Positions 2,500 to 19,020 of a stretch of DNA of 64,000 nt are shown piece after piece. Source of the stretch: a plasmid. The translations under genes and the position numbers were made by a program. The first letter of the stretch is position 1. Each line of letters begins with the position of its first letter. The notes under the pieces were generated by a model. It made no database searches and was not told the DNA's origin. It saw only the letters and a program-made list of their open reading frames with translations. The stretch lies in assembly GCF_054482525.1 (NCBI RefSeq), contig NZ_JBTHVG010000004.1. One strand, written 5' to 3'.

Positions 2500-2890
2500 T
2501 CGTTCCAGGGGTGGTCTGGAGATCATGCGGTGTGCTCCCTGCTCTCGCCGGAATAAGGACGTCGCCGCCGGCTCCGCTTTTACCCGGCCATGCGGGGCAT
2601 GGCCTTGTGGGTTTTCAGTTATGTGGCCTCAGCGTCGTGTGCGGGCTGTGCCGTGCCTCCATCGTAGCCGGGCTTCTGCGGGCGGGTTGCAAGGTAAGGT
2701 GAACCGCTGCGGTCACCCGGTCCCTCCTTCCCGTCCGCCGTGATTTTCCGGTCGTTCACCCGCTCAGATTTCGCGGTCTCACCCTCCAACTCCCGCCAGC
2801 CGTGTGCGTCAGGCTGCGGCTTCCCTTGCGCCCTTGCAACCCTGCAGGCCCGGCAAAGATGGAGGCACGGCACCGCCCGGTGTCGCAGAA
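2500..2890 (+). promoter_or_regulatory. GC-rich, hairpin-rich non-coding element upstream of ardA; candidate single-strand DNA promoter (ssi/Frpo-type)
   Basis: About 390 bp of non-coding sequence at >65% GC, full of short inverted repeats. It lies directly 5' of ardA, which in ColIb-P9 is known to be expressed early from a single-strand promoter. The secondary structure was not folded here. Confidence 0.4.
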
Positions 2891-2914
2891 CATGTGACTA
2901 TGGAGGATTCGGGA

Positions 2915-3415
2915 ATGTCTGTTGTTGCACCTGCTGTATACGTTGGAACCTGGCACAAATACAACTGTGGAAGCATCGCCGGACGCTGGTTTGACCTGAC
3001 CACGTTTGATGATGAGCGCGACTTTTTCGCCGCCTGCCGTGCTCTTCACCAGGATGAAGCCGATCCTGAACTGATGTTTCAGGATTATGAGGGATTCCCG
3101 GGGAATATGGCCTCTGAATGCCATATCAACTGGGCCTGGGTTGAAGGCTTCCGCCAGGCACGGGATGAAGGCTGCGAAGAGGCTTATCGTCTCTGGGTGG
3201 AGGATACCGGTGAGACGGATTTTGACACCTTCCGCGATGCCTGGTGGGGCGAGGCTGACAGTGAGGAGGCTTTTGCGGTTGAGTTCGCCAGTGATACCGG
3301 CCTGCTGGCTGACGTGCCGGAGACGGTGGCGCTCTATTTTGACTATGAGGCGTATGCGCGGGATTTATTCCTGGACTCCTTCACCTTTATTGACGGTCAT
3401 GTGTTCCGTCGGTGA
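2915..3415 (+). CDS. ardA: ArdA antirestriction protein (type I restriction inhibitor, DNA mimic), 166 aa
   Basis: MSVVAPAVYVGTWHKYNCGSIAGRWFDLTTFDDERDFF... is the canonical ColIb-P9/R64 ArdA. A GGAGGA ribosome-binding site sits 7 nt upstream of ATG 2915; the longer ORF from 2804 is an upstream extension. Confidence 0.92.
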   Translation: MSVVAPAVYVGTWHKYNCGSIAGRWFDLTTFDDERDFFAACRALHQDEADPELMFQDYEGFPGNMASECHINWAWVEGFRQARDEGCEEAYRLWVEDTGETDFDTFRDAWWGEADSEEAFAVEFASDTGLLADVPETVALYFDYEAYARDLFLDSFTFIDGHVFRR

Positions 3416-3770
3416 TTTACTCCCCCGCTCCGGCGGGGGTATGGCCTGCCAGGCCGCCGGAAAACCCTGGCAGGCTTACGCCTGCCTGAAATGCAGGAGG
3501 GCCGCGCCTGCGGCGCTGCCCTTCCTGCCCGTCATGGTGTGAGGCATTTTTCTGTTATGTCGTTTCTGTTGTTCTGATTTCCGGAGGCGGGGACACCTTC
3601 GGCTCCCGGCTGCCTGGCGGCATCCGGTCGTCAGGCCCGACTCCGACAGGCAGCTGCTGGCGCACCCGCCAGTCTCCGCCGAACCCGCTGGCGCGGTTTC
3701 GGGCTGCCGCTACGGTCCGATGTCTGAAAAACCAGGCTTGCAGCGACCGTTCCGGTCGCGCCGCCCCTGT

Positions 3771-4117
3771 CGCGCCGGAAACGGCGCTCCCTGCACACCT
3801 GACGGTGTGTAAGGCCACTGCGCCTGATGGCGCAGTCAACCCTTCCGCCGCCACCCCTGCGGCCTGTTTCCCGCTGTGGACTTTCCGGGGGCTGGAGTAA
3901 CCACATCCCGTTTCAGCAGTCCAGGGGAAGATATACCGTCCACAAAATTTTTAGCCATAAACCCGGCAAAAAATTTTGCGTCCGCCCCCGGACAGCTGCC
4001 CCGTGACGTGGTGACGGACGCCCCATCGGAAAGGTCCACTGCGGGGAGAAACCCCGAAGAAGTGGACGGCAGAAGGGGCTTTCGCCCCTCCGGGGAGCAA
4101 CCGGTCGGCCCGGCGAC
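3771..4117 (+). promoter_or_regulatory. Frpo/ssi-like single-strand promoter element, repeat copy A (about 85% identical to 6636..6992)
   Basis: GC-rich non-coding block with long imperfect inverted repeats (e.g. ctccctgcacacctgacggtgtgtaagg, ccccgtgacgtggtgacggacgcccc). It ends 25 bp before the ribosome-binding site of ORF 4144, is on the strand expected for leading-strand ssDNA transcription toward oriT, and is repeated at 6636..6992. Confidence 0.5.
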
Positions 4118-4143
4118 CTGATTCAGCAGAAGGAGACGTTTTC

Positions 4144-4578
4144 ATGACTGTCAGCAGCACGATTTCCGTTTTTTGCCGCGACGGGGTGTTCCGTACCGTT
4201 TACTGCCACCTGCACGGTGAGCCGACCTGGAACGGTCGCATCCTGCATACCCACTATGCCACCGGTCAGCAGGCCGAAGCCCTGGTTGAACACGGTGATA
4301 TCCGTTGCCTCGGTCCCCGTTGCGACAAACCCGCCGGGCATACGCTTCAGAACCCGGTGGACGGTGTGACGGCTTATTACGGACGTGACAGTGGTTTCCG
4401 GATGGACAGTGAGGCGCGTGAGTACCGTTCTTTCAGGGAGGCTATTGCCACTGAAAGCACTGAAGAGGTGCGCTTCCATTATGTGTTCATCGACGGCTAC
4501 TGGAAGGTGATGTACCGCACGCCGGAAGGCTGGAAGATGAAAGCGCTCGCGCTGGCACTGCGTCGCTGTCCGAAATGA
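4144..4578 (+). CDS. hypothetical protein (144 aa) directly downstream of Frpo-like element A
   Basis: GAAGGAG ribosome-binding site 8 nt before the ATG. Clean ORF (MTVSSTISVFCRDGVFRTVYCHLHGEPTWNG...) with no motif I can name. Confidence 0.6.
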   Translation: MTVSSTISVFCRDGVFRTVYCHLHGEPTWNGRILHTHYATGQQAEALVEHGDIRCLGPRCDKPAGHTLQNPVDGVTAYYGRDSGFRMDSEAREYRSFREAIATESTEEVRFHYVFIDGYWKVMYRTPEGWKMKALALALRRCPK

Positions 4579-4670
4579 AAAAAGGCAGGGCGATAAACCC
4601 TGCCTCTCTCCGCCGGCGCTTCCCCGCCAGGAAGTCCGGCATCTCAATCACTATCTATGGAGATTATGCC

Positions 4671-4937
4671 ATGAGACCATCAATTATCTTCGCAACCGCC
4701 GAGTATGTAAAGCGTCTGCGTGAAGAGTGCCTGCGGGAGAATAAACCCCTGCACCGCCATACCCGCTTCAGACGTCAGGAGCTGGCACAGGATGAGATTA
4801 ACCCGGACGTCCTGGCGATGAGCGGCCATATCGCCAGACGCTGCAGTGAGCAGAAGCGGGTGCGTATCCCCGCTATGAAAGTCAGCGAATGGGGCCACCT
4901 GCTCCGCGCGCTTGAAATTGAGCGGGTCTGCCACTGA
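4671..4937 (+). CDS. hypothetical small protein (88 aa)
   Basis: GGAG ribosome-binding site before ATG 4671 (MRPSIIFATAEYVKRLREECL...). The longer ORF from 4575 lacks a ribosome-binding site. Confidence 0.5.
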   Translation: MRPSIIFATAEYVKRLREECLRENKPLHRHTRFRRQELAQDEINPDVLAMSGHIARRCSEQKRVRIPAMKVSEWGHLLRALEIERVCH

Positions 4938-5001
4938 TTAACCCTTGCCGTCTGCCTGTGCAGGCGGCAGGATACGTTCAGACATCTCACCAGGAGGAAC
5001 C

Positions 5002-5892
5002 GTGAGTAAGAAGAAAACCACCACGACGCCCACGCCGCATGATGCCGCGTTCCGGTCGTTCCTGGCGAATCCCGACGTCGCCAGAGATTTTCTGGAACTG
5101 CATCTTCCGGCGGAGTACCGGCAGTTGTGCGACCTGTCCACGCTGAAGCTGGAACCCGCCACCTTTGTTGAGCCGGACCTGCATCAGTACGCCAGCGATA
5201 TCCTCTGGAGTGTGAAAACCACCGGGGGTGAAGACGGCTATGTTTATACGCTCATCGAGCACCAGAGCACCGAAAATCTGTACATGCCTTTCCGCATGTT
5301 ACGTTACAGTGTGGCGGCGATGCAGAGACATCTGGAGCAGCACAAAACGTTGCCACTGGTGATTCCTGTGCTGTTCTATCATGGTGAGCGCAGCCCGTAC
5401 CCGTACAGCATGAACTGGCTGGACTGTTTTGAGAATCCGGCACTTGCGGCTAAAATATACACAAAGCCGTTTCCGCTGGTTGATATCACTGTCGTTGATG
5501 ACAATGAAATCATGAACCATCGCCGGATGGCCGCACTGACGCTGCTGATGAAGCATATCCGCCATCGTGACATGATGGATCTGCTGGACAAACTCCCGCA
5601 GGTCATGGTGGAAATTTCAGACGAGCAGGTGCGTGTTCTGATTCATTACATCGTTAACGCAGGGGACTCTGTATCACCGGAATTTATGCGGGCGCTGGCT
5701 GAGCGTCTGCCGCAGCATGAGGATAAACTGATGACTATCGCAGAACGTCTTGAGCAAAAAGGTCGCCAGGAAGGAGCGCTTGAAAAAGCCCTGGCTATTG
5801 CGTGCCAGCTTCAGAAAATGGGGATGACGCCGGAGCAGATTAAGCAGGCTACCGGACTTTCCGAAGCTGAACTGAAAAAAATCATTCACTGA
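5002..5892 (+). CDS. Rpn-family recombination-promoting nuclease (YhgA-like, PD-(D/E)XK, 'transposase_31' family), 296 aa
   Basis: An AGGAGG ribosome-binding site precedes a GTG start at 5002. The N-terminus (TPHDAAFRSFLANPDVARDFLELHLP), the ...EHQS... core and the C-terminal helical tail (ERLEQKGRQEG...MGMTPEQIKQATGLSEAELKKI) are characteristic of E. coli RpnA-E. Confidence 0.8.
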   Translation: MSKKKTTTTPTPHDAAFRSFLANPDVARDFLELHLPAEYRQLCDLSTLKLEPATFVEPDLHQYASDILWSVKTTGGEDGYVYTLIEHQSTENLYMPFRMLRYSVAAMQRHLEQHKTLPLVIPVLFYHGERSPYPYSMNWLDCFENPALAAKIYTKPFPLVDITVVDDNEIMNHRRMAALTLLMKHIRHRDMMDLLDKLPQVMVEISDEQVRVLIHYIVNAGDSVSPEFMRALAERLPQHEDKLMTIAERLEQKGRQEGALEKALAIACQLQKMGMTPEQIKQATGLSEAELKKIIH

Positions 5893-5905
5893 TGAGAGCA
5901 TCACA

Positions 5906-5930
5906 GCCCGGCAAAATGCCGGGCTTTTTT
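5906..5930 (+). terminator. rho-independent terminator after rpn
   Basis: Hairpin agcccggc-aaaat-gccgggct followed by TTTTTT. Confidence 0.6.
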
Positions 5931-5954
5931 GTCAGCAGGAGCAGAGAAAACAGT

Positions 5955-6149
5955 ATGACGCTTGCAGAACGTCTTATACAGAAAGGTTTCGACGAAGGTT
6001 TTAAAGAAGGTTTTAAGAAAGGTGCGCTTGAAGTGGCGCGGGAAGCAGCCTGCCGGCTGCGGGATATGGGCTGGACGCCGGAACGGATTCAGGAGGCGAC
6101 CGGACTTTCCGGTGAAGAACTGAAAAAGCTGTTTCCTGATGAGCAGTAG
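5955..6149 (+). CDS. small protein (64 aa) equivalent to the Rpn C-terminal domain only (ypaA/RpnS-like)
   Basis: MTLAERLIQKGFDEGFKEG...DMGWTPERIQEATGLSGEELKKLF is collinear with the last ~60 aa of the upstream Rpn (MTIAERLEQKGRQEG...KMGMTPEQIKQATGLSEAELKKII). An alternative start at ATG 5892 overlaps the rpn stop (TGATG) but would read through the terminator hairpin. Confidence 0.5.
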   Translation: MTLAERLIQKGFDEGFKEGFKKGALEVAREAACRLRDMGWTPERIQEATGLSGEELKKLFPDEQ

Positions 6150-6179
6150 CCTGACATTCTGCCAGGCTGTGAATCACGC

Positions 6180-6431
6180 TCACACATTCCCTGCCGTTTC
6201 CCCCAGTTCATTTTCCAGACGCCTGATGATATCTGCCTTGCGCATCCCCTGCATGTGAGGCAGCAGGTCACGGACTGAAAGTGCCTGGGTGGTCCTCCAG
6301 ACGGTGACGTCCACCTGTTCCGCATTTTCCCAGGCGTGCCATGTTCTCTGCGTCACGCCAAATTCTCTGGCCGCTTTTTCGCGTGACCATAGCATGCTTT
6401 TTCGCCAGATTCGCAGTTCCCAGCCGGTCAT
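6180..6431 (-). CDS. XRE-family helix-turn-helix transcriptional regulator (83 aa)
   Basis: The HTH signature (...AAREFGVTQRTWHAWENAEQ...) is typical of Cro/CI-type repressors. It is the only minus-strand gene inside the leading-region block. Confidence 0.6.
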   Translation of the reverse strand: MTGWELRIWRKSMLWSREKAAREFGVTQRTWHAWENAEQVDVTVWRTTQALSVRDLLPHMQGMRKADIIRRLENELGETAGNV

Positions 6432-6447
6432 AAAACACCTTTGAAAA

Positions 6448-6531
6448 AGTGAAAAAACTTCACTTTATTTTATCATCACAATTGCCAAATCAGCGCGATA
6501 AATAAGTGTAAAAAAGTGAAGAAATTTCACT
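6448..6531. promoter_or_regulatory. two palindromic operator-like sites AGTGAA-N5-TTCACT (6448..6464 and 6515..6531) in the promoter region of the XRE gene
   Basis: Both are perfect hexamer palindromes with 5-bp spacers, 67 bp apart, in an AT-rich stretch immediately upstream of the minus-strand HTH gene start. Confidence 0.35.
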
Positions 6532-6635
6532 TTTTTTGTTTGTAAGTGTCGTGCGGTTTTCTCTGTTTTCACCTGTGCGGGAGTGGTGTGCCAGTGACCA
6601 CCACATGCCATTGTTGTGCCGTCGTTTTTCTTCAG

Positions 6636-6992
6636 TCGCGCCGGATGCGGCGCTCCCTGCACACCTTACGGTGTGTAAGGCCACTGCGCCTGATGGCGCA
6701 GCTGTCTCTTGCCTGTCTGCCGCCGCACTGCGGCCTGTTCTCCGCAGACGGACTTTCCGGGGGTACATACACGACCACATCCCGTTTCAGTCGTCCAGGG
6801 GAGAGATGTACCAGCCACAAAACTTTTTGCCGCTGGCGTCAAAAACTTTTGCGTCTGCCCCCGGACAACTGCCCCGTGACGTGGTGAGCGTCCCCCGTCG
6901 GAAAGGTCCACTGCGGGGAAATACCCTAAGACCCGGACGGCAGAAGGAGCTTCGCTCCTCCGGGAAATGACCTGGCTGACCCGGCAGTCGTG
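6636..6992 (+). promoter_or_regulatory. Frpo/ssi-like single-strand promoter element, repeat copy B
   Basis: About 85% identical to 3771..4117 in several long patches. It ends just before the ribosome-binding site (AGGAG) of the DUF4942-like gene at 7012. Confidence 0.5.
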
Positions 6993-7011
6993 ACGATGAG
7001 GAGACAATGTG

Positions 7012-7860
7012 ATGAATCAGACTTTACCCACTGCTGACCTGAATACTGCCGGCACGACAGATGTTATTCCGTCTGTGGCTATCGACCGCATCATCGCGCA
7101 GCGTAACGAAGGTATTGCACTATTCATGCAGGCGATGGAATGCCTGGCGACAGCGCGCAGGATTCTGCTCGATGCGTCAGGTGATATTTTTCTTTACGGG
7201 TTTGAAGACTGCGTGACTGATTCCGTTCGTCGCATGGATAAGCCGGAAGAAGCGAAAAGGAATATCACCCGTCTTGCCGACCGGAAAATCTGGGACCGCC
7301 TGATGACAGATACGGGCATGTACACCTTCATGAGTTCATGCCAGCGTGATGAGTGGAACAGCCAGCTGATGAGCGACACCTGTCCTGAAATCACCCTGGA
7401 CAATGTACTGGCAACATTCCGCCATCTTAATACCAGCAAGATGCAGACGTTTGAACAGGGACTGATTGATGTCTACCGGAAATTGTCATGGGATTACAGA
7501 ACCAATAATCCCTGCCGTCTGGGCAAGAAAATCATTATTGAAAACATGCTGTACCGCTGGAGTAACGGGCGTGTGACGCTGGACTGCAGCGGACGGGAGG
7601 CACTGGATGACCTGGTACGTCCTTTTTATCTGCTGGAGGGGCGAAACGTTCCTGACTTCCGGAGCAGCATCGGGGCGCAGTATGGTGAATTTCTCGGGAA
7701 CGGCGACAACGTCGGTAAGCTGTTAGAAGGGGAATATTTTACGGTGCGTGGCTACCAGAAAGGGACCGTACACATTGTCTTTAAGCGTCCTGACCTTGTT
7801 GAAAAACTGAATGATATTATTGCACGGCATTATCCTGGTGCATTGCCGCCACGAGTCTGA
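7012..7860 (+). CDS. conserved plasmid leading-region protein, DUF4942-like (282 aa)
   Basis: AGGAG ribosome-binding site 9 nt before ATG 7012 (a GTG at 7009 is also possible). The size and sequence resemble the DUF4942 proteins commonly annotated between ardA and nikA in IncI1/IncB/O/K plasmids; this is recalled from memory, not searched. Confidence 0.5.
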   Translation: MNQTLPTADLNTAGTTDVIPSVAIDRIIAQRNEGIALFMQAMECLATARRILLDASGDIFLYGFEDCVTDSVRRMDKPEEAKRNITRLADRKIWDRLMTDTGMYTFMSSCQRDEWNSQLMSDTCPEITLDNVLATFRHLNTSKMQTFEQGLIDVYRKLSWDYRTNNPCRLGKKIIIENMLYRWSNGRVTLDCSGREALDDLVRPFYLLEGRNVPDFRSSIGAQYGEFLGNGDNVGKLLEGEYFTVRGYQKGTVHIVFKRPDLVEKLNDIIARHYPGALPPRV

Positions 7861-17248: not shown

Positions 17249-17419
17249 ATAAAAGGATTGTTGCAGATACGAAAGTCGTTAGAATAGCCGCGGACGCTTG
17301 AGGCTGTATGCCGAAAGCGTTTTGTGGATGGTATACAGCAGAAAGCCCCCTGGAGATTTTTTATCAATCAACCAGGGGCTCTACTGTAATGCCTAGACAA
17401 CATTATAGTAGCCTGATAA
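17249..17419 (+). repeat. 171-bp direct repeat R1, a copy of the pnd (hok/sok-type) leader containing a truncated pndC start
   Basis: About 95% identical to 18670..18840. It contains the gta-atg-cct...cattatagtagc pndC start, but the frame ends after 12 codons (MPRQHYSSLII*) and no pndA follows. Confidence 0.8.
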
Positions 17420-17461
17420 TTTAGATATGTGTACATCCTACCGGAAAAGATACTTTTCAGG

Positions 17462-18669: not shown

Positions 18670-18840
18670 ATAAAAGGATTGTTACAGATACGAAAGTCGT
18701 TAGAATAGCTGCGGGCGCTTGAGGCTGTATGCCGAAAGCGTTTTGTGGACGGTATACAGCAGAAAGCCCCTGGAGATTTTTTTATCAATCAACCAAGGGC
18801 TCTACTGTAATGCCTCAACAACATTATAGTAGCCCGATAA
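18670..18840 (+). repeat. 171-bp direct repeat R2 (the intact pnd leader)
   Basis: Partner of R1; continues into the intact pndC/pndA. Confidence 0.8.
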
Positions 18841-19013
18841 CCGCCGGAAGGCAATGGAGGGGCTATGATGCCACAGCGAACGTTTTTAATGATGTTAATC
18901 GTCGTCTGTGTGACGATTCTGTGTTTTGTCTGGATGGTGAGGGATTCGCTTTGCGGACTCCGGCTCCAGCAGGGAAACACAGTGCTTGTGGCAACGTTAG
19001 CCTACGAAGTTAA
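18810..19013 (+). CDS. pndC: PndC (mok-like overlapping reading frame required for pndA translation)
   Basis: An ORF overlapping pndA in another frame and starting inside the leader, as in hok/mok loci. Confidence 0.45.
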   Translation: MPQQHYSSPITAGRQWRGYDATANVFNDVNRRLCDDSVFCLDGEGFALRTPAPAGKHSACGNVSLRS

Positions 19014-19020
19014 ACGTTAA
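18868..19020 (+). CDS. pndA: PndA, Hok/Gef-family membrane toxin (50 aa)
   Basis: MPQRTFLMMLIVVCVTILCFVWMVRDSLCGLRLQQGNTVLVATLAYEVKR is essentially the R64/R483 PndA sequence. Confidence 0.88.
   Translation: MPQRTFLMMLIVVCVTILCFVWMVRDSLCGLRLQQGNTVLVATLAYEVKR

What the first reader, a model, noticed from the sequence alone, without database searches (positions are those of the whole stretch)
4144..4937. Two uncharacterised ORFs directly downstream of an Frpo-like element: candidate anti-defence genes
ORF 4144..4578 (144 aa, strong GAAGGAG ribosome-binding site) starts 25 bp after the repeat-A ssDNA-promoter-like element. This is exactly the arrangement of ardA behind its own element. ORF 4671..4937 (88 aa, GGAG ribosome-binding site) follows it. 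Neither has a motif I can assign. Genes in this position on conjugative plasmids are strongly enriched for anti-restriction, anti-CRISPR, anti-SOS and other recipient-manipulating functions.
Basis: inference. Interest (0 to 1): 0.7.

Follow-up and report, generated by a model that had tools for sequence, protein, structure and literature searches.

The report
Unknown early-transfer genes of IncI1 plasmids
These are two real, widely conserved but functionally uncharacterised genes (ygcA and ygdA) that IncI1 resistance plasmids very probably switch on from a single-stranded-DNA promoter on entering a new cell; they are already catalogued, and an anti-defence role is plausible but unproven.

Summary
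ORF1 (4144-4578, 144 aa) and ORF2 (4671-4937, 88 aa) are real genes under purifying selection (dN/dS 0.13 and 0.12). They follow a ~350-nt element homologous to the F-plasmid Frpo ssDNA promoter. The window is an IncI1 leading region, and this stretch is 100% identical to many sequenced plasmids.

The genes are already catalogued as ygcA/ygdA, and as Hp16/Hp17 of pESBL. In pESBL they are dispensable for maintenance and transfer. They sit behind one of three Frpo-like promoters reported to fire in fresh transconjugants.

New here:
- The common "PndC" label on ORF1 is a misnomer; the true pnd locus lies at 18.7-19.0 kb.
- ORF1 belongs to a large phage/plasmid family (about 2000 clusters). Its model is confident (pLDDT 96.8) with no match among solved structures, and it has invariant His/Asp/Arg/aromatic residues.
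- ORF1 alone is swapped for a 53%-identical allele in otherwise near-identical backbones.
- ORF2 is very basic and appears to belong to the most abundant leading-region family (YdaB/YdfB/YgdA).

Neither protein is a DNA mimic, and neither matches any protein family of known function in the libraries searched. The anti-defence idea is supported by context only.

The parts
3769..4115 (-). Class-1 (Frpo/ssi-type) single-stranded-DNA promoter element. A long imperfect hairpin forms on the transferred (minus) strand, with its apical loop near 3953-3968. Candidate -35-like TTGTGG (3945-3940) and -10-like TGGACT (3923-3918) lie on the non-template arm.
   Evidence: It is 81% identical to the second copy at 6635-6964. 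Its core aligns with F Frpo1 and Frpo2. The DNA fold is -109.6 kcal/mol, z -8.2. It is 100% identical to pESBL-EA11 upstream of Hp16. Hexamer positions come from parsing the fold and are tentative.
4129..4135 (+). Ribosome-binding site GAAGGAG of ORF1, 8 nt before the ATG.
   Evidence: Read directly from the sequence.
4144..4578 (+). ORF1 = ygcA (Hp16 of pESBL; often mislabelled 'PndC'). 144 aa, pI 8.3. Member of a large uncharacterised phage/plasmid family (phrog_1987).
4583..4605 (+). 8-bp GC-rich stem-loop just after the ORF1 stop, with no U-tract. A weak RNA hairpin, not a clear terminator.
   Evidence: -15.2 kcal/mol, z -1.2.
4659..4662 (+). Ribosome-binding site GGAG of ORF2, 8 nt before the ATG.
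   Evidence: Read directly from the sequence.
4671..4937 (+). ORF2 = ygdA (Hp17 of pESBL). 88 aa, pI 9.9. Small basic protein of the YdaB/YdfB/YgdA leading-region family.
   Evidence: Supported (dN/dS 0.12; model pLDDT 68).
4944..4971 (+). Strong 12-bp stem-loop between ORF2 and rpn, with no U-tract. In other IncI1 plasmids the ORF2-rpn interval that contains it carries the extra gene ccgAII (562 bp in pESBL against 64 bp here).
   Evidence: -22.7 kcal/mol, z -4.1. Gene order. Intergenic lengths (562 bp against 64 bp).
5002..5892 (+). Rpn (YhgA-like, PF04754) recombination-promoting nuclease = ygdB. Probable third cistron of the same transcription unit.
   Evidence: (E 3e-78 and 6e-98).
5905..5931 (+). 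Canonical intrinsic terminator (9-bp GC stem plus TTTTTT) directly after rpn. Probable end of the ygcA-ygdA-rpn unit.
   Evidence: -19.1 kcal/mol, z -3.5.

Best explanation
ygcA (ORF1) and ygdA (ORF2) are the first two cistrons of a leading-region operon, ygcA-ygdA-rpn.

**How the operon is expressed.** The operon is read from a class-1 (Frpo/ssi-type) promoter. That promoter exists only while the incoming transferred strand is single-stranded and folded into a hairpin. The two proteins are therefore made in a burst in the new recipient, before ordinary plasmid promoters work, and are switched off once the complementary strand is made. They are accessory establishment factors acting in the recipient, not parts of the replication, partition or transfer machinery.

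**ORF1 (inferred).** It is a compact alpha/beta protein with no match among solved structures. Its invariant Tyr/His/Asp/Arg/Trp residues are kept from cyanophages to enterobacterial plasmids. It therefore most likely binds or processes a conserved small molecule or nucleic-acid feature, for example an immune signal or nucleotide-derived metabolite, rather than a host-specific protein. It is not a DNA mimic.

**ORF2 (inferred).** It is a small, strongly basic protein and most likely binds nucleic acid, either the entering DNA or a regulatory site.

**Status of the steps.**
- Shown here: gene reality, promoter homology and fold, orientation.
- Published for near-identical sequence: dispensability of the two genes, and induction of the operons behind the class-1 promoters. 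That the ygcA operon is one of these is my mapping.
- Inferred: the biochemical roles and the anti-defence purpose.
For: **Location and promoter**
- The stretch is an IncI1 leading region, 100% identical to many plasmids.
- The promoter is homologous to F Frpo1/2 and folds as a hairpin on the minus strand with z -8.2.
- It is identical to pESBL-EA11 upstream of Hp16, with paralogous copies before ssb and DUF4942.
- Wen et al. 2025 report that ssi1-3 (class 1) drive the most strongly induced operons in 15-min transconjugants, with mapped start sites.

**Operon structure**
- Intergenic gaps are 92 and 64 nt.
- No sigma-70-like site lies on the + strand between 3400 and 5428.
- The only canonical terminator comes after rpn.

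**Dispensability**
- In the pESBL TnSeq, Hp16 scores non-essential 0.76, maintenance 0.24, transfer 0.00. Hp17 scores non-essential 1.00.
- These two proteins differ from the window proteins by one residue each.

**ORF1**
- The family has 1981 clusters with invariant or near-invariant Y20, H22, D24, H66, Y79, R81, D82, Y113 and W120.
- The model has pLDDT 96.8 and no PDB match.
- Relatives occur in jumbo, T4-like and cyanophages, beside ArdC-like genes, and in phage small-gene arrays near NAMPT, NADAR and PNKP.
- ORF1 alone drops to 48-62% nucleotide identity in a backbone that is otherwise 91-100% identical.

**ORF2**
- Family pI is 9.9-12.
- Homologues sit in IncF and other MOBF/MOBP leading regions, behind an Frpo core in IncF.

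**Literature.** Both families appear to be listed as leading-region enriched and T-strand oriented.
Against: - There is no direct functional evidence for either protein.
- Neither resembles any known anti-restriction, anti-CRISPR or other anti-defence protein in the searches run here. For family 1, Samuel et al.'s DIAMOND and Foldseek screens also found nothing.
- I could not see the per-gene fold changes of Wen et al. (supplement not held). Induction of these two genes is therefore inferred from promoter identity and operon structure.
- The window's ORF1 departs from its own family consensus at seven highly conserved positions (six of them at 90% or more): T3V, R4S, D24H, Y26E, S54R, R83S, E85F. 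Any ancestral activity may be altered or lost.
- The ORF2 model is only moderate (pLDDT 68). Its DNA-binding resemblances are below threshold.
- Dispensability in laboratory matings fits an anti-defence role but equally fits no role at all.
Confidence: 0.5

Rival explanations
1. ORF1 is PndC, the Mok-like leader/regulatory ORF of the pnd (Hok/Sok-type) post-segregational killing system. On this reading the locus is a plasmid-maintenance function.
For: Many GenBank and UniRef entries name this protein 'post-segregation killing protein PndC'. Samuel et al. list the family as 'PndC (Hok/Sok TA related)'.
Against: - The only sok-type RNA matches in the window lie at 17292-17449 and 18713-18870.
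- The true PndA toxin (18865-19020) and its overlapping PndC-position ORF (18729-19013) are there.
- ORF1 shows no significant similarity to that ORF.
- No Hok-like ORF overlaps ORF1.
- ORF1 relatives are soluble ~140-aa phage proteins.
- pESBL Hp16 is not required for maintenance.
Confidence: 0.02
2. One or both proteins are DNA mimics that block restriction enzymes, working like ArdA or Ocr.
For: They sit next to ardA, in the same orientation, with the same kind of early expression.
Against: - ORF1 has net charge +2 and pI 8.3. ORF2 has net charge +6 and pI 9.9. ArdA has net charge -25 and pI 4.1.
- Neither hits Pfam ArdA or any other family of known function.
Confidence: 0.03
3. ORF2 is not an anti-defence effector. 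It is instead a small DNA-binding regulator or nucleoid-type protein. It might time leading-region expression, control the gene downstream of it, or coat the entering DNA.
For: - The family is strongly basic, pI 9.9-12.
- It has a conserved 'VRIPAM..SEWG..LR.LE' strand-helix motif.
- There is a weak match to the ribbon-like DNA-binding strand of TCP15, E 0.6.
- IncF homologues give a sub-threshold HU-domain hit, E 1.7e-4 and 22 bits against a cut-off of 26.
- It is the gene directly before an N-6 DNA methylase in Enterobacter and Leclercia plasmids, and before DUF3560 plus a SAM methyltransferase in IncF.
Against: All similarities are below significance. The model is of moderate confidence with no PDB match. 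The downstream partner differs between plasmid groups: Rpn or ccgAII in IncI1. No binding site has been identified.
Confidence: 0.25
4. The proteins help process the incoming strand rather than counter host immunity. Possible steps include priming, complementary-strand synthesis, recircularisation and recombination with Rpn.
For: They are co-transcribed with an Rpn nuclease. Frpo-type elements also prime DNA synthesis, as cited. Expression is confined to the single-stranded phase.
Against: Both genes are dispensable for transfer in pESBL. ORF1 relatives occur in lytic phages that have no such step. ORF1 and ORF2 occur independently of each other and of Rpn in other elements.
Confidence: 0.12
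5. The genes are conserved passengers with no present function in establishment. They persist only because they sit in a highly expressed, frequently recombining region.
For: There is no phenotype in TnSeq. ORF1 departs from the family consensus at several near-invariant residues. Frameshifted and chimeric variants are common in databases.
Against: Purifying selection acts on both genes, dN/dS about 0.12-0.13. They are retained in about 2000 plasmids, with nearly every matching record (1987 of 2027) covering at least 80% of the two-gene stretch. ORF2 homologues are retained across IncI, IncF and other plasmids.
Confidence: 0.08

Closest known systems
ArdA, KlcA/ArdB and PsiB: the characterised early genes of IncI1/IncF leading regions
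   Same: They share the same region, the same orientation (transferred strand as template) and an ssDNA hairpin promoter upstream. Their operons are reported to be induced in fresh transconjugants. All are dispensable for maintenance and transfer in laboratory matings.
   Different: There is no sequence or fold similarity. The charge is opposite to that of the DNA mimic ArdA. ardA and klcA use a different (class 2) promoter element. ORF1 and ORF2 have no known target.
F-plasmid Frpo1 and Frpo2 operons (ygeA-ygeB; ssb-yfjA-yfjB-psiB) and ColIb-P9 ssi1-3
   Same: The promoter core is homologous and the hairpin lies on the T-strand. The first gene starts a few tens of nucleotides after the element and has a strong ribosome-binding site.
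   Different: The genes behind the element differ. No ORF1 or ORF2 homologue appears among the annotated genes of the F leading region. IncF plasmids such as pO157 carry only a 76-aa ORF2 relative behind an Frpo core.
Leading-region gene families #1 (YdaB/YdfB/YgdA) and #23 ('PndC') of Samuel et al. 2024
   Same: Names, strand and median gene position from oriT match the pESBL gene order: 6 and 7, with ArdA at 8, RpnB at 4 and DUF4942 at 1. Sizes agree with my plasmid counts.
   Different: The assignment rests on name and position. I did not score the proteins against their HMMs, because the HMM file is not in rank order. They treat #23 as toxin-antitoxin related, which my results contradict.
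phrog_1987 and phrog_23089 (phage proteins of unknown function)
   Same: ORF1 matches both profiles over nearly its full length, E 5e-21 and 5e-19. Predicted structures of phage members superpose, for example GAP32 at TM 0.85.
   Different: The plasmid protein is a divergent branch with seven substitutions at highly conserved family positions (six of them at 90% or more). Neither PHROG has a known function.
Ribbon-helix-helix/TCP-type and HU-type small DNA-binding proteins (for ORF2)
   Same: ORF2 is small and basic, with a strand-then-helix motif resembling the DNA-contacting strand of TCP15. IncF homologues give a sub-threshold HU-domain hit.

Membership tests
Class-1 ssDNA promoter (Frpo of F / ssi1-3 of ColIb-P9) | Sequence homology to the Frpo core | tested here: met
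   The alignment with F Frpo1 and Frpo2 shows a conserved core (CCACA..CAGGGG..CCACAAAA.TTTT..GCAAAA.TTTTGCGTC.GCCCCCGGACA). blastn gives 76-80% identity over 80-91 nt to F and IncF copies, and 87% over 336 nt to the R64/pESBL copy before ssb.
Class-1 ssDNA promoter (Frpo of F / ssi1-3 of ColIb-P9) | Extensive hairpin formed by the transferred strand | tested here: met
   The minus strand of 3760-4125 folds at -109.6 kcal/mol. Shuffles average -73.9 and z is -8.2.
Class-1 ssDNA promoter (Frpo of F / ssi1-3 of ColIb-P9) | Downstream genes oriented so that the transferred strand is the template (transcription towards oriT) | tested here: met
   ORF1 and ORF2 are on the + strand, reading towards nikA/nikB at 8.5 kb. 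In pESBL oriT lies immediately before nikA.
Class-1 ssDNA promoter (Frpo of F / ssi1-3 of ColIb-P9) | -35 and -10 hexamers reconstituted in the stem | tested here: inconclusive
   Candidates TTGTGG and TGGACT lie 16 nt apart on the non-template arm. Both are poor consensus matches and I could not check them against the published start sites.
Class-1 ssDNA promoter (Frpo of F / ssi1-3 of ColIb-P9) | Promoter activity on single-stranded DNA only | not testable with these tools
   Induction and 5' RACE are published for pESBL's class-1 promoters. The pESBL copy upstream of Hp16 is 100% identical to the window element.
PndC / Mok-type leader ORF of Hok-family killing systems | Overlaps a Hok-family toxin gene and lies beside a Sok-type antisense RNA | tested here: not met
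   Sok matches occur only at 17292-17449 and 18713-18870. PndA is at 18865-19020. No Hok-like ORF lies in 4100-5000.
PndC / Mok-type leader ORF of Hok-family killing systems | Sequence similarity to the ORF in the pndC position | tested here: not met
   BLASTP of ORF1 against 18729-19013 gives only a 7-residue chance match, E 0.05 for the single comparison.
ArdA-type DNA-mimic anti-restriction proteins | ArdA domain (PF07275) and a strongly acidic surface | tested here: not met
   There is no Pfam hit for ORF1 or ORF2, while the neighbouring ArdA scores 2.4e-29. Net charge is +2 and +6 against -25.
Known anti-defence or defence protein families in general | Profile or structural match to a described family | tested here: not met
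phrog_1987-like phage/plasmid family (ORF1) | Full-length profile match and shared conserved motifs | tested here: met
   E 5.3e-21 over residues 1-126. There are 1981 clusters at E<=1e-3. Y20, C21, H22, G25, H66, Y79, R81, D82, Y113 and W120 are retained, but seven consensus positions are changed.
YdaB/YdfB/YgdA leading-region family (ORF2) | Homology to small basic proteins in the leading regions of other plasmid groups, in T-strand orientation | tested here: met
   tblastn finds at least 5000 plasmid records, about 3000 of them below 60% identity. Examples lie in IncF, MOBF Enterobacter and MOBP Leclercia leading regions. The alignment shows a conserved C-terminal motif. The link to Samuel's family #1 is by name and position only.
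Ribbon-helix-helix or HU-type DNA-binding proteins (ORF2) | Significant profile match or canonical fold | tested here: inconclusive
   TCP15 gives E 0.6. PF14908 gives 22 bits against a cut-off of 26.1, and only for IncF homologues. The model has pLDDT 68 and a non-canonical topology.

The most novel reading that the evidence does not exclude
ORF1 would represent a new protein fold shared by IncI plasmids and many jumbo, T4-like and cyanophages. On this reading it binds or degrades a conserved small molecule used by bacterial immunity, such as a nucleotide second messenger or an NAD-derived signal. The cassette-like swapping of 53%-identical alleles at one locus would be the trace of an arms race. 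ORF2, from the most abundant leading-region family, would be a new kind of small DNA-binding protein that shields or marks the entering strand.
Probability: 0.2. Interest if true: 0.8.

Novelty: already known. Interest (0 to 1): 0.4.

Why it matters
IncI1 plasmids are major carriers of extended-spectrum beta-lactamase genes. The first minutes after entry decide whether a plasmid establishes, and the genes expressed then are possible targets for blocking spread.

These two genes are among the most common unexplained genes in that early set:
- ORF2's family appears to be the largest leading-region family reported.
- ORF1's family reaches deep into phages and has a confidently predicted structure with no match among solved structures.

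Assigning them a function would fill a known gap. It might also reveal a counter-defence mechanism shared by plasmids and phages.

The practical gain from this check is smaller:
- It removes a misleading 'PndC' label.
- It rules out the DNA-mimic idea.
- It points to specific residues and alleles worth testing.

Tried and rejected
**Family and structure searches that found nothing useful**
- Pfam, NCBIfam and PADLOC on both proteins gave nothing; PHROGs gave only two families of unknown function for ORF1.
- Pfam on all 70 aligned ORF1 relatives gave nothing.
- Twenty longer ORF1 relatives were scanned for fused domains. Only one WYL_2 and one sub-threshold partial gp32-like match turned up, which is not informative.
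- PDB sequence and profile searches found nothing significant.
- The AlphaFold database library was unavailable.

**Ideas tested and dropped**
- ORF1 as PndC: rejected.
- DNA-mimic idea: rejected on charge.
- ORF1 and ORF2 as an obligate pair: rejected. The gene before ORF2 homologues in other plasmids is unrelated to ORF1 (hhalign probability 0.2%), and ORF1 relatives in phages have different neighbours.
- ORF2 related to the small F/R64 proteins after the methylase and DUF1380 genes: no convincing alignment.
- L005 for ORF1 dN/dS: rejected, because that assembly carries compensating frameshifts.

**Searches that failed or gave nothing**
- Rfam at a permissive threshold over 3400-7100 gave only chance matches.
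- A genome-collection scan with the ORF1 alignment failed for lack of a conserved block.
- Literature searches for the protein accessions and PHROG ids found nothing.
- The supplement of Wen et al. with per-gene fold changes is not held.
- The HMM file of Samuel et al. is not in rank order, so I did not use it.
Full report
**What the window is.** The region 3700-5000 is 100% identical to many IncI1/IncI-gamma plasmids of Escherichia, Salmonella and Shigella. The annotated neighbourhood of one of them shows the classical IncI1 leading region. The order is ParB-like, psiB, psiA, ardA, two hypothetical genes, an Rpn nuclease, a small ORF, an HTH gene on the other strand, DUF4942, a MobC-like gene, then nikA and nikB. 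The same order is read from the window's ORFs and Pfam hits. In plasmid pN83 the two hypothetical genes are named ygcA and ygdA.

**The observation.**
- ORF1 runs from ATG 4144 to TGA 4578 (144 aa), with GAAGGAG 8 nt upstream.
- ORF2 runs from ATG 4671 to TGA 4937 (88 aa), with GGAG 8 nt upstream.
- Length alone is weak evidence in 58% G+C DNA, since the opposite strand also has a 174-aa ORF across ORF1.
- Comparison with a diverged copy (L006, from a sequencing-run assembly) settles it. ORF1 has 15 synonymous and 7 non-synonymous differences (dN/dS 0.13). ORF2 has 27 and 15 (dN/dS 0.12). Changes concentrate at third codon positions.
- The pair is present in 2027 PLSDB plasmids, and in 1987 of them the match covers at least 80% of the two-gene stretch.

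**The upstream element.**
- Window ~3769-4094 is 81% identical to a second copy at ~6635-6964, just before the DUF4942 gene.
- Its core aligns with the regions upstream of ygeA and ssb in plasmid F, i.e. Frpo1 and Frpo2.
- The minus strand is the transferred strand, given that oriT lies just before nikA. It folds into a long imperfect hairpin at -109.6 kcal/mol, against -73.9 for shuffles (z -8.2).
- The element is 100% identical to the sequence before Hp16 in pESBL-EA11. pESBL has further copies before ssb and before DUF4942.
- Wen et al. 2025 report that three pESBL hairpins correspond to ColIb-P9 ssi1-3 and resemble Frpo ('class 1'). They report that all six ssDNA promoters have start sites mapped by 5' RACE, and that class 1 gives the highest transcription in 15-min transconjugants.
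- The same paper places the ardA and klcA promoters in a different 'class 2'. I confirm this: the ardA upstream region (2500-2900) folds (z -3.8) and matches the klcA upstream regions of R64, F and pESBL, not the repeat.

**Operon structure.**
- The gaps ORF1-ORF2 and ORF2-rpn are 92 and 64 nt.
- No sigma-70-like site lies on the + strand between 3400 and 5428.
- The hairpins after ORF1 and ORF2 lack U-tracts.
- A canonical terminator (9-bp GC stem plus T6) follows rpn at 5905-5931.
- I therefore read ygcA-ygdA-rpn as one unit. This is an inference.

**ORF1.**
- *No named family.* It has no Pfam, NCBIfam or PADLOC match. It does match two PHROG families of unknown function at E 5e-21 and 5e-19.
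- *Family size.* An exhaustive HMMER scan finds 1981 cluster representatives at E<=1e-3. Most are 130-150 aa metagenomic proteins.
- *Phage members.* tblastn finds members in jumbo phages of Cronobacter, Serratia and Erwinia, in KVP40-like vibriophages and in cyanophages. All are annotated as hypothetical.
- *Conserved residues.* An alignment of 70 members shows invariant or near-invariant Y20, H22, D24, G25, H66, Y79, R81, D82, R83, Y113 and W120, and a conserved N-terminus M-x-T-R-S. None of the 70 has a convincing Pfam domain.
- *A divergent member.* The window protein differs from the family at T3V, R4S, D24H, Y26E, S54R, R83S and E85F. D24H keeps a potential metal ligand, but that is speculation.
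- *Not a DNA mimic.* With pI 8.3 it cannot be a DNA mimic like ArdA (pI 4.1, net charge -25).
- *Inference.* Conservation of polar and aromatic residues across hosts as distant as cyanobacteria and enterobacteria argues for a conserved small-molecule or nucleic-acid partner rather than a host-specific protein. This is inference only.

**The 'PndC' label.**
- Many records call ORF1 'post-segregation killing protein PndC'. Samuel et al. carry that label for their family #23.
- The window's only sok-type RNA matches are at 17292-17449 and 18713-18870.
- The PndA toxin is at 18865-19020, with the overlapping ORF in the pndC position at 18729-19013.
- ORF1 is unrelated to that ORF. The label is a propagated error.

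**Allele replacement at ORF1.**
- A protein 53% identical to ORF1 (P0113) sits at exactly the same place in other IncI1 backbones: ardA, P0113, the 88-aa ORF2, rpn, DUF4942, nikA, nikB.
- In a sliding comparison the flanks are 91-100% identical. The ORF1 coding sequence alone falls to 48-62%.
- This allele is absent from the complete plasmids of PLSDB, so it is rare.
- Such gene-sized replacement in a conserved backbone is what one sees for genes under conflict. It could also be simple horizontal exchange.
- A 43%-identical relative lies among ArdC-like anti-restriction genes.
- More distant relatives sit in one-directional arrays of small unknown phage genes near NAMPT, NADAR, PNKP, Metallophos and DUF5983 genes.
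- This is guilt by association, not proof.

**ORF2.**
- *Close homologues.* The word-indexed search found only close relatives, many of them frameshifted.
- *Distant homologues.* tblastn against plasmids finds at least 5000 records, about 3000 of them at 40-45% identity.
- *In IncF plasmids* such as pO157, a 76-aa homologue is the first gene of a unit with DUF3560 and a SAM methyltransferase. An Frpo-core match lies about 360 nt upstream.
- *In Enterobacter and Leclercia plasmids*, an 84-88-aa homologue sits directly before an N-6 DNA methylase close to oriT.
- *Conserved motifs.* The family alignment shows 'R-H-T-R-F-R-R', 'G-R-H-I-A' and 'V-R-I-P-A-M..S-E-W-G..L-R-T-L-E'. Family pI is 9.9-12.
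- *Structure.* The model is moderate (pLDDT 68; strand-helix, loop, helix-strand-helix) and has no PDB match.
- *Weak resemblances.* These are the DNA-contacting strand of TCP15 (E 0.6) and an HU domain for the IncF homologues (22 bits, below the 26.1 cut-off).
- *Inference.* A nucleic-acid-binding role is the most economical reading, but it is unproven.
- *Independence from ORF1.* The gene preceding ORF2 homologues elsewhere is unrelated to ORF1, so the two are not an obligate pair.

**What is already published.**
- *Samuel et al. 2024.* Their table of leading-region families lists #1 (4739 members; names YdaB/YdfB/YgdA; median position 6 from oriT; T-strand; no hit to any anti-CRISPR or anti-restriction sequence or structure) and #23 ('PndC'; 2203 members; position 7).
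- The series DUF4942 = 1, HTH = 2 (opposite strand), RpnE = 3, RpnB = 4, family 1 = 6, family 23 = 7, ArdA = 8 reproduces the pESBL gene order. I therefore equate #1 with ORF2 and #23 with ORF1. This is inference by name and position.
- *Yamaichi et al. 2015.* Their pESBL transposon screen scored Hp16 as non-essential 0.76, maintenance 0.24, transfer 0.00, and Hp17 as non-essential 1.00. ArdA, PsiB and KlcA all scored 1.00 non-essential.
- Hp16 and Hp17 differ from the window proteins by one residue each.

**Verdict.**
It rests on context: early expression, dispensability, phage relatives, neighbours and allele turnover. No similarity to any known counter-defence protein or direct test supports it.
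- The genes and their setting are already known, and the function is a recognised open question.
- The added value here is the correction of the PndC label, the exclusion of DNA mimicry, the size of the ORF1 family and the lack of any match for its predicted structure among solved structures, the allele cassette, and the placement of ORF2 in the most common leading-region family.

Noticed in passing
window 5002-6149: The Rpn (YhgA-like) nuclease gene is followed by an 85-aa ORF (5892-6149) that resembles the Rpn C-terminus. Direct repeats 5756-5879 and 6004-6127 are 72% identical, and NCBIfam TIGR01784 matches the C-terminal part at 4.6e-08. A canonical terminator (5905-5931) lies inside the 5' end of this small ORF, so it may be expressed separately or not at all from the upstream unit.
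   Followed up: partly
window 17292-17449 and 18713-19020: There are two sok-type RNA matches. The second (132.8 bits) goes with an intact PndA toxin (18865-19020). The first (84.6 bits) has only a truncated leader-like ORF and no intact Hok-family ORF nearby, so it looks like a decayed second pnd copy.
   Followed up: partly
window 2500-2900: The hairpin element upstream of ardA is 87-90% identical to the regions upstream of klcA/ardB in R64, F, pESBL and IncF plasmids. It is the 'class 2' ssDNA promoter, distinct from the Frpo-like repeat.
   Followed up: yes
window 6180-6431 (minus strand): An 83-aa HTH protein is one of the few genes here on the non-transferred-template strand, so it can be expressed only after the complementary strand is made. 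It fits Samuel et al.'s family #22 (position 2, strand -1, labelled aca6-like in 3 of 2333 members). It could be a late repressor of the neighbouring early genes.
   Followed up: no
proteins P0050 and P0051 (database relatives of window 4144-4578): Chimeric proteins exist in databases: an ArdA N-terminus fused to the ORF1 C-terminus (163 aa), and a DUF1380 N-terminus fused to part of ORF1 (135 aa). This indicates deletions or recombination between leading-region genes. Many ORF1 and ORF2 database variants are frameshifted.
   Followed up: partly
window 4937-5001, compared with pESBL L010 16341-16903: The 64-nt ORF2-rpn spacer, which holds a strong 12-bp hairpin, is replaced in pESBL and pN83 by a 562-bp segment carrying the 129-aa acidic, Cys-rich protein ccgAII. 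This is a variable insertion point within the operon.
   Followed up: partly
window 7009-7860: The DUF4942 protein (ygfB/ydiA, methyltransferase-like by Foldseek according to Samuel et al.) sits behind the second Frpo-like copy and is the gene nearest oriT. ORF2 homologues in other plasmids sit directly before DNA methylase genes, a recurring neighbourhood that I did not explore.
   Followed up: no
locus L001 3593-4768 (NZ_CP025279), compared with the window: That plasmid, identical over 3700-5000, carries an RNA-guided endonuclease TnpB family gene between psiA and ardA. The window instead has the 209-aa ORF 1824-2453. The leading region is mosaic even among near-identical plasmids.
   Followed up: no
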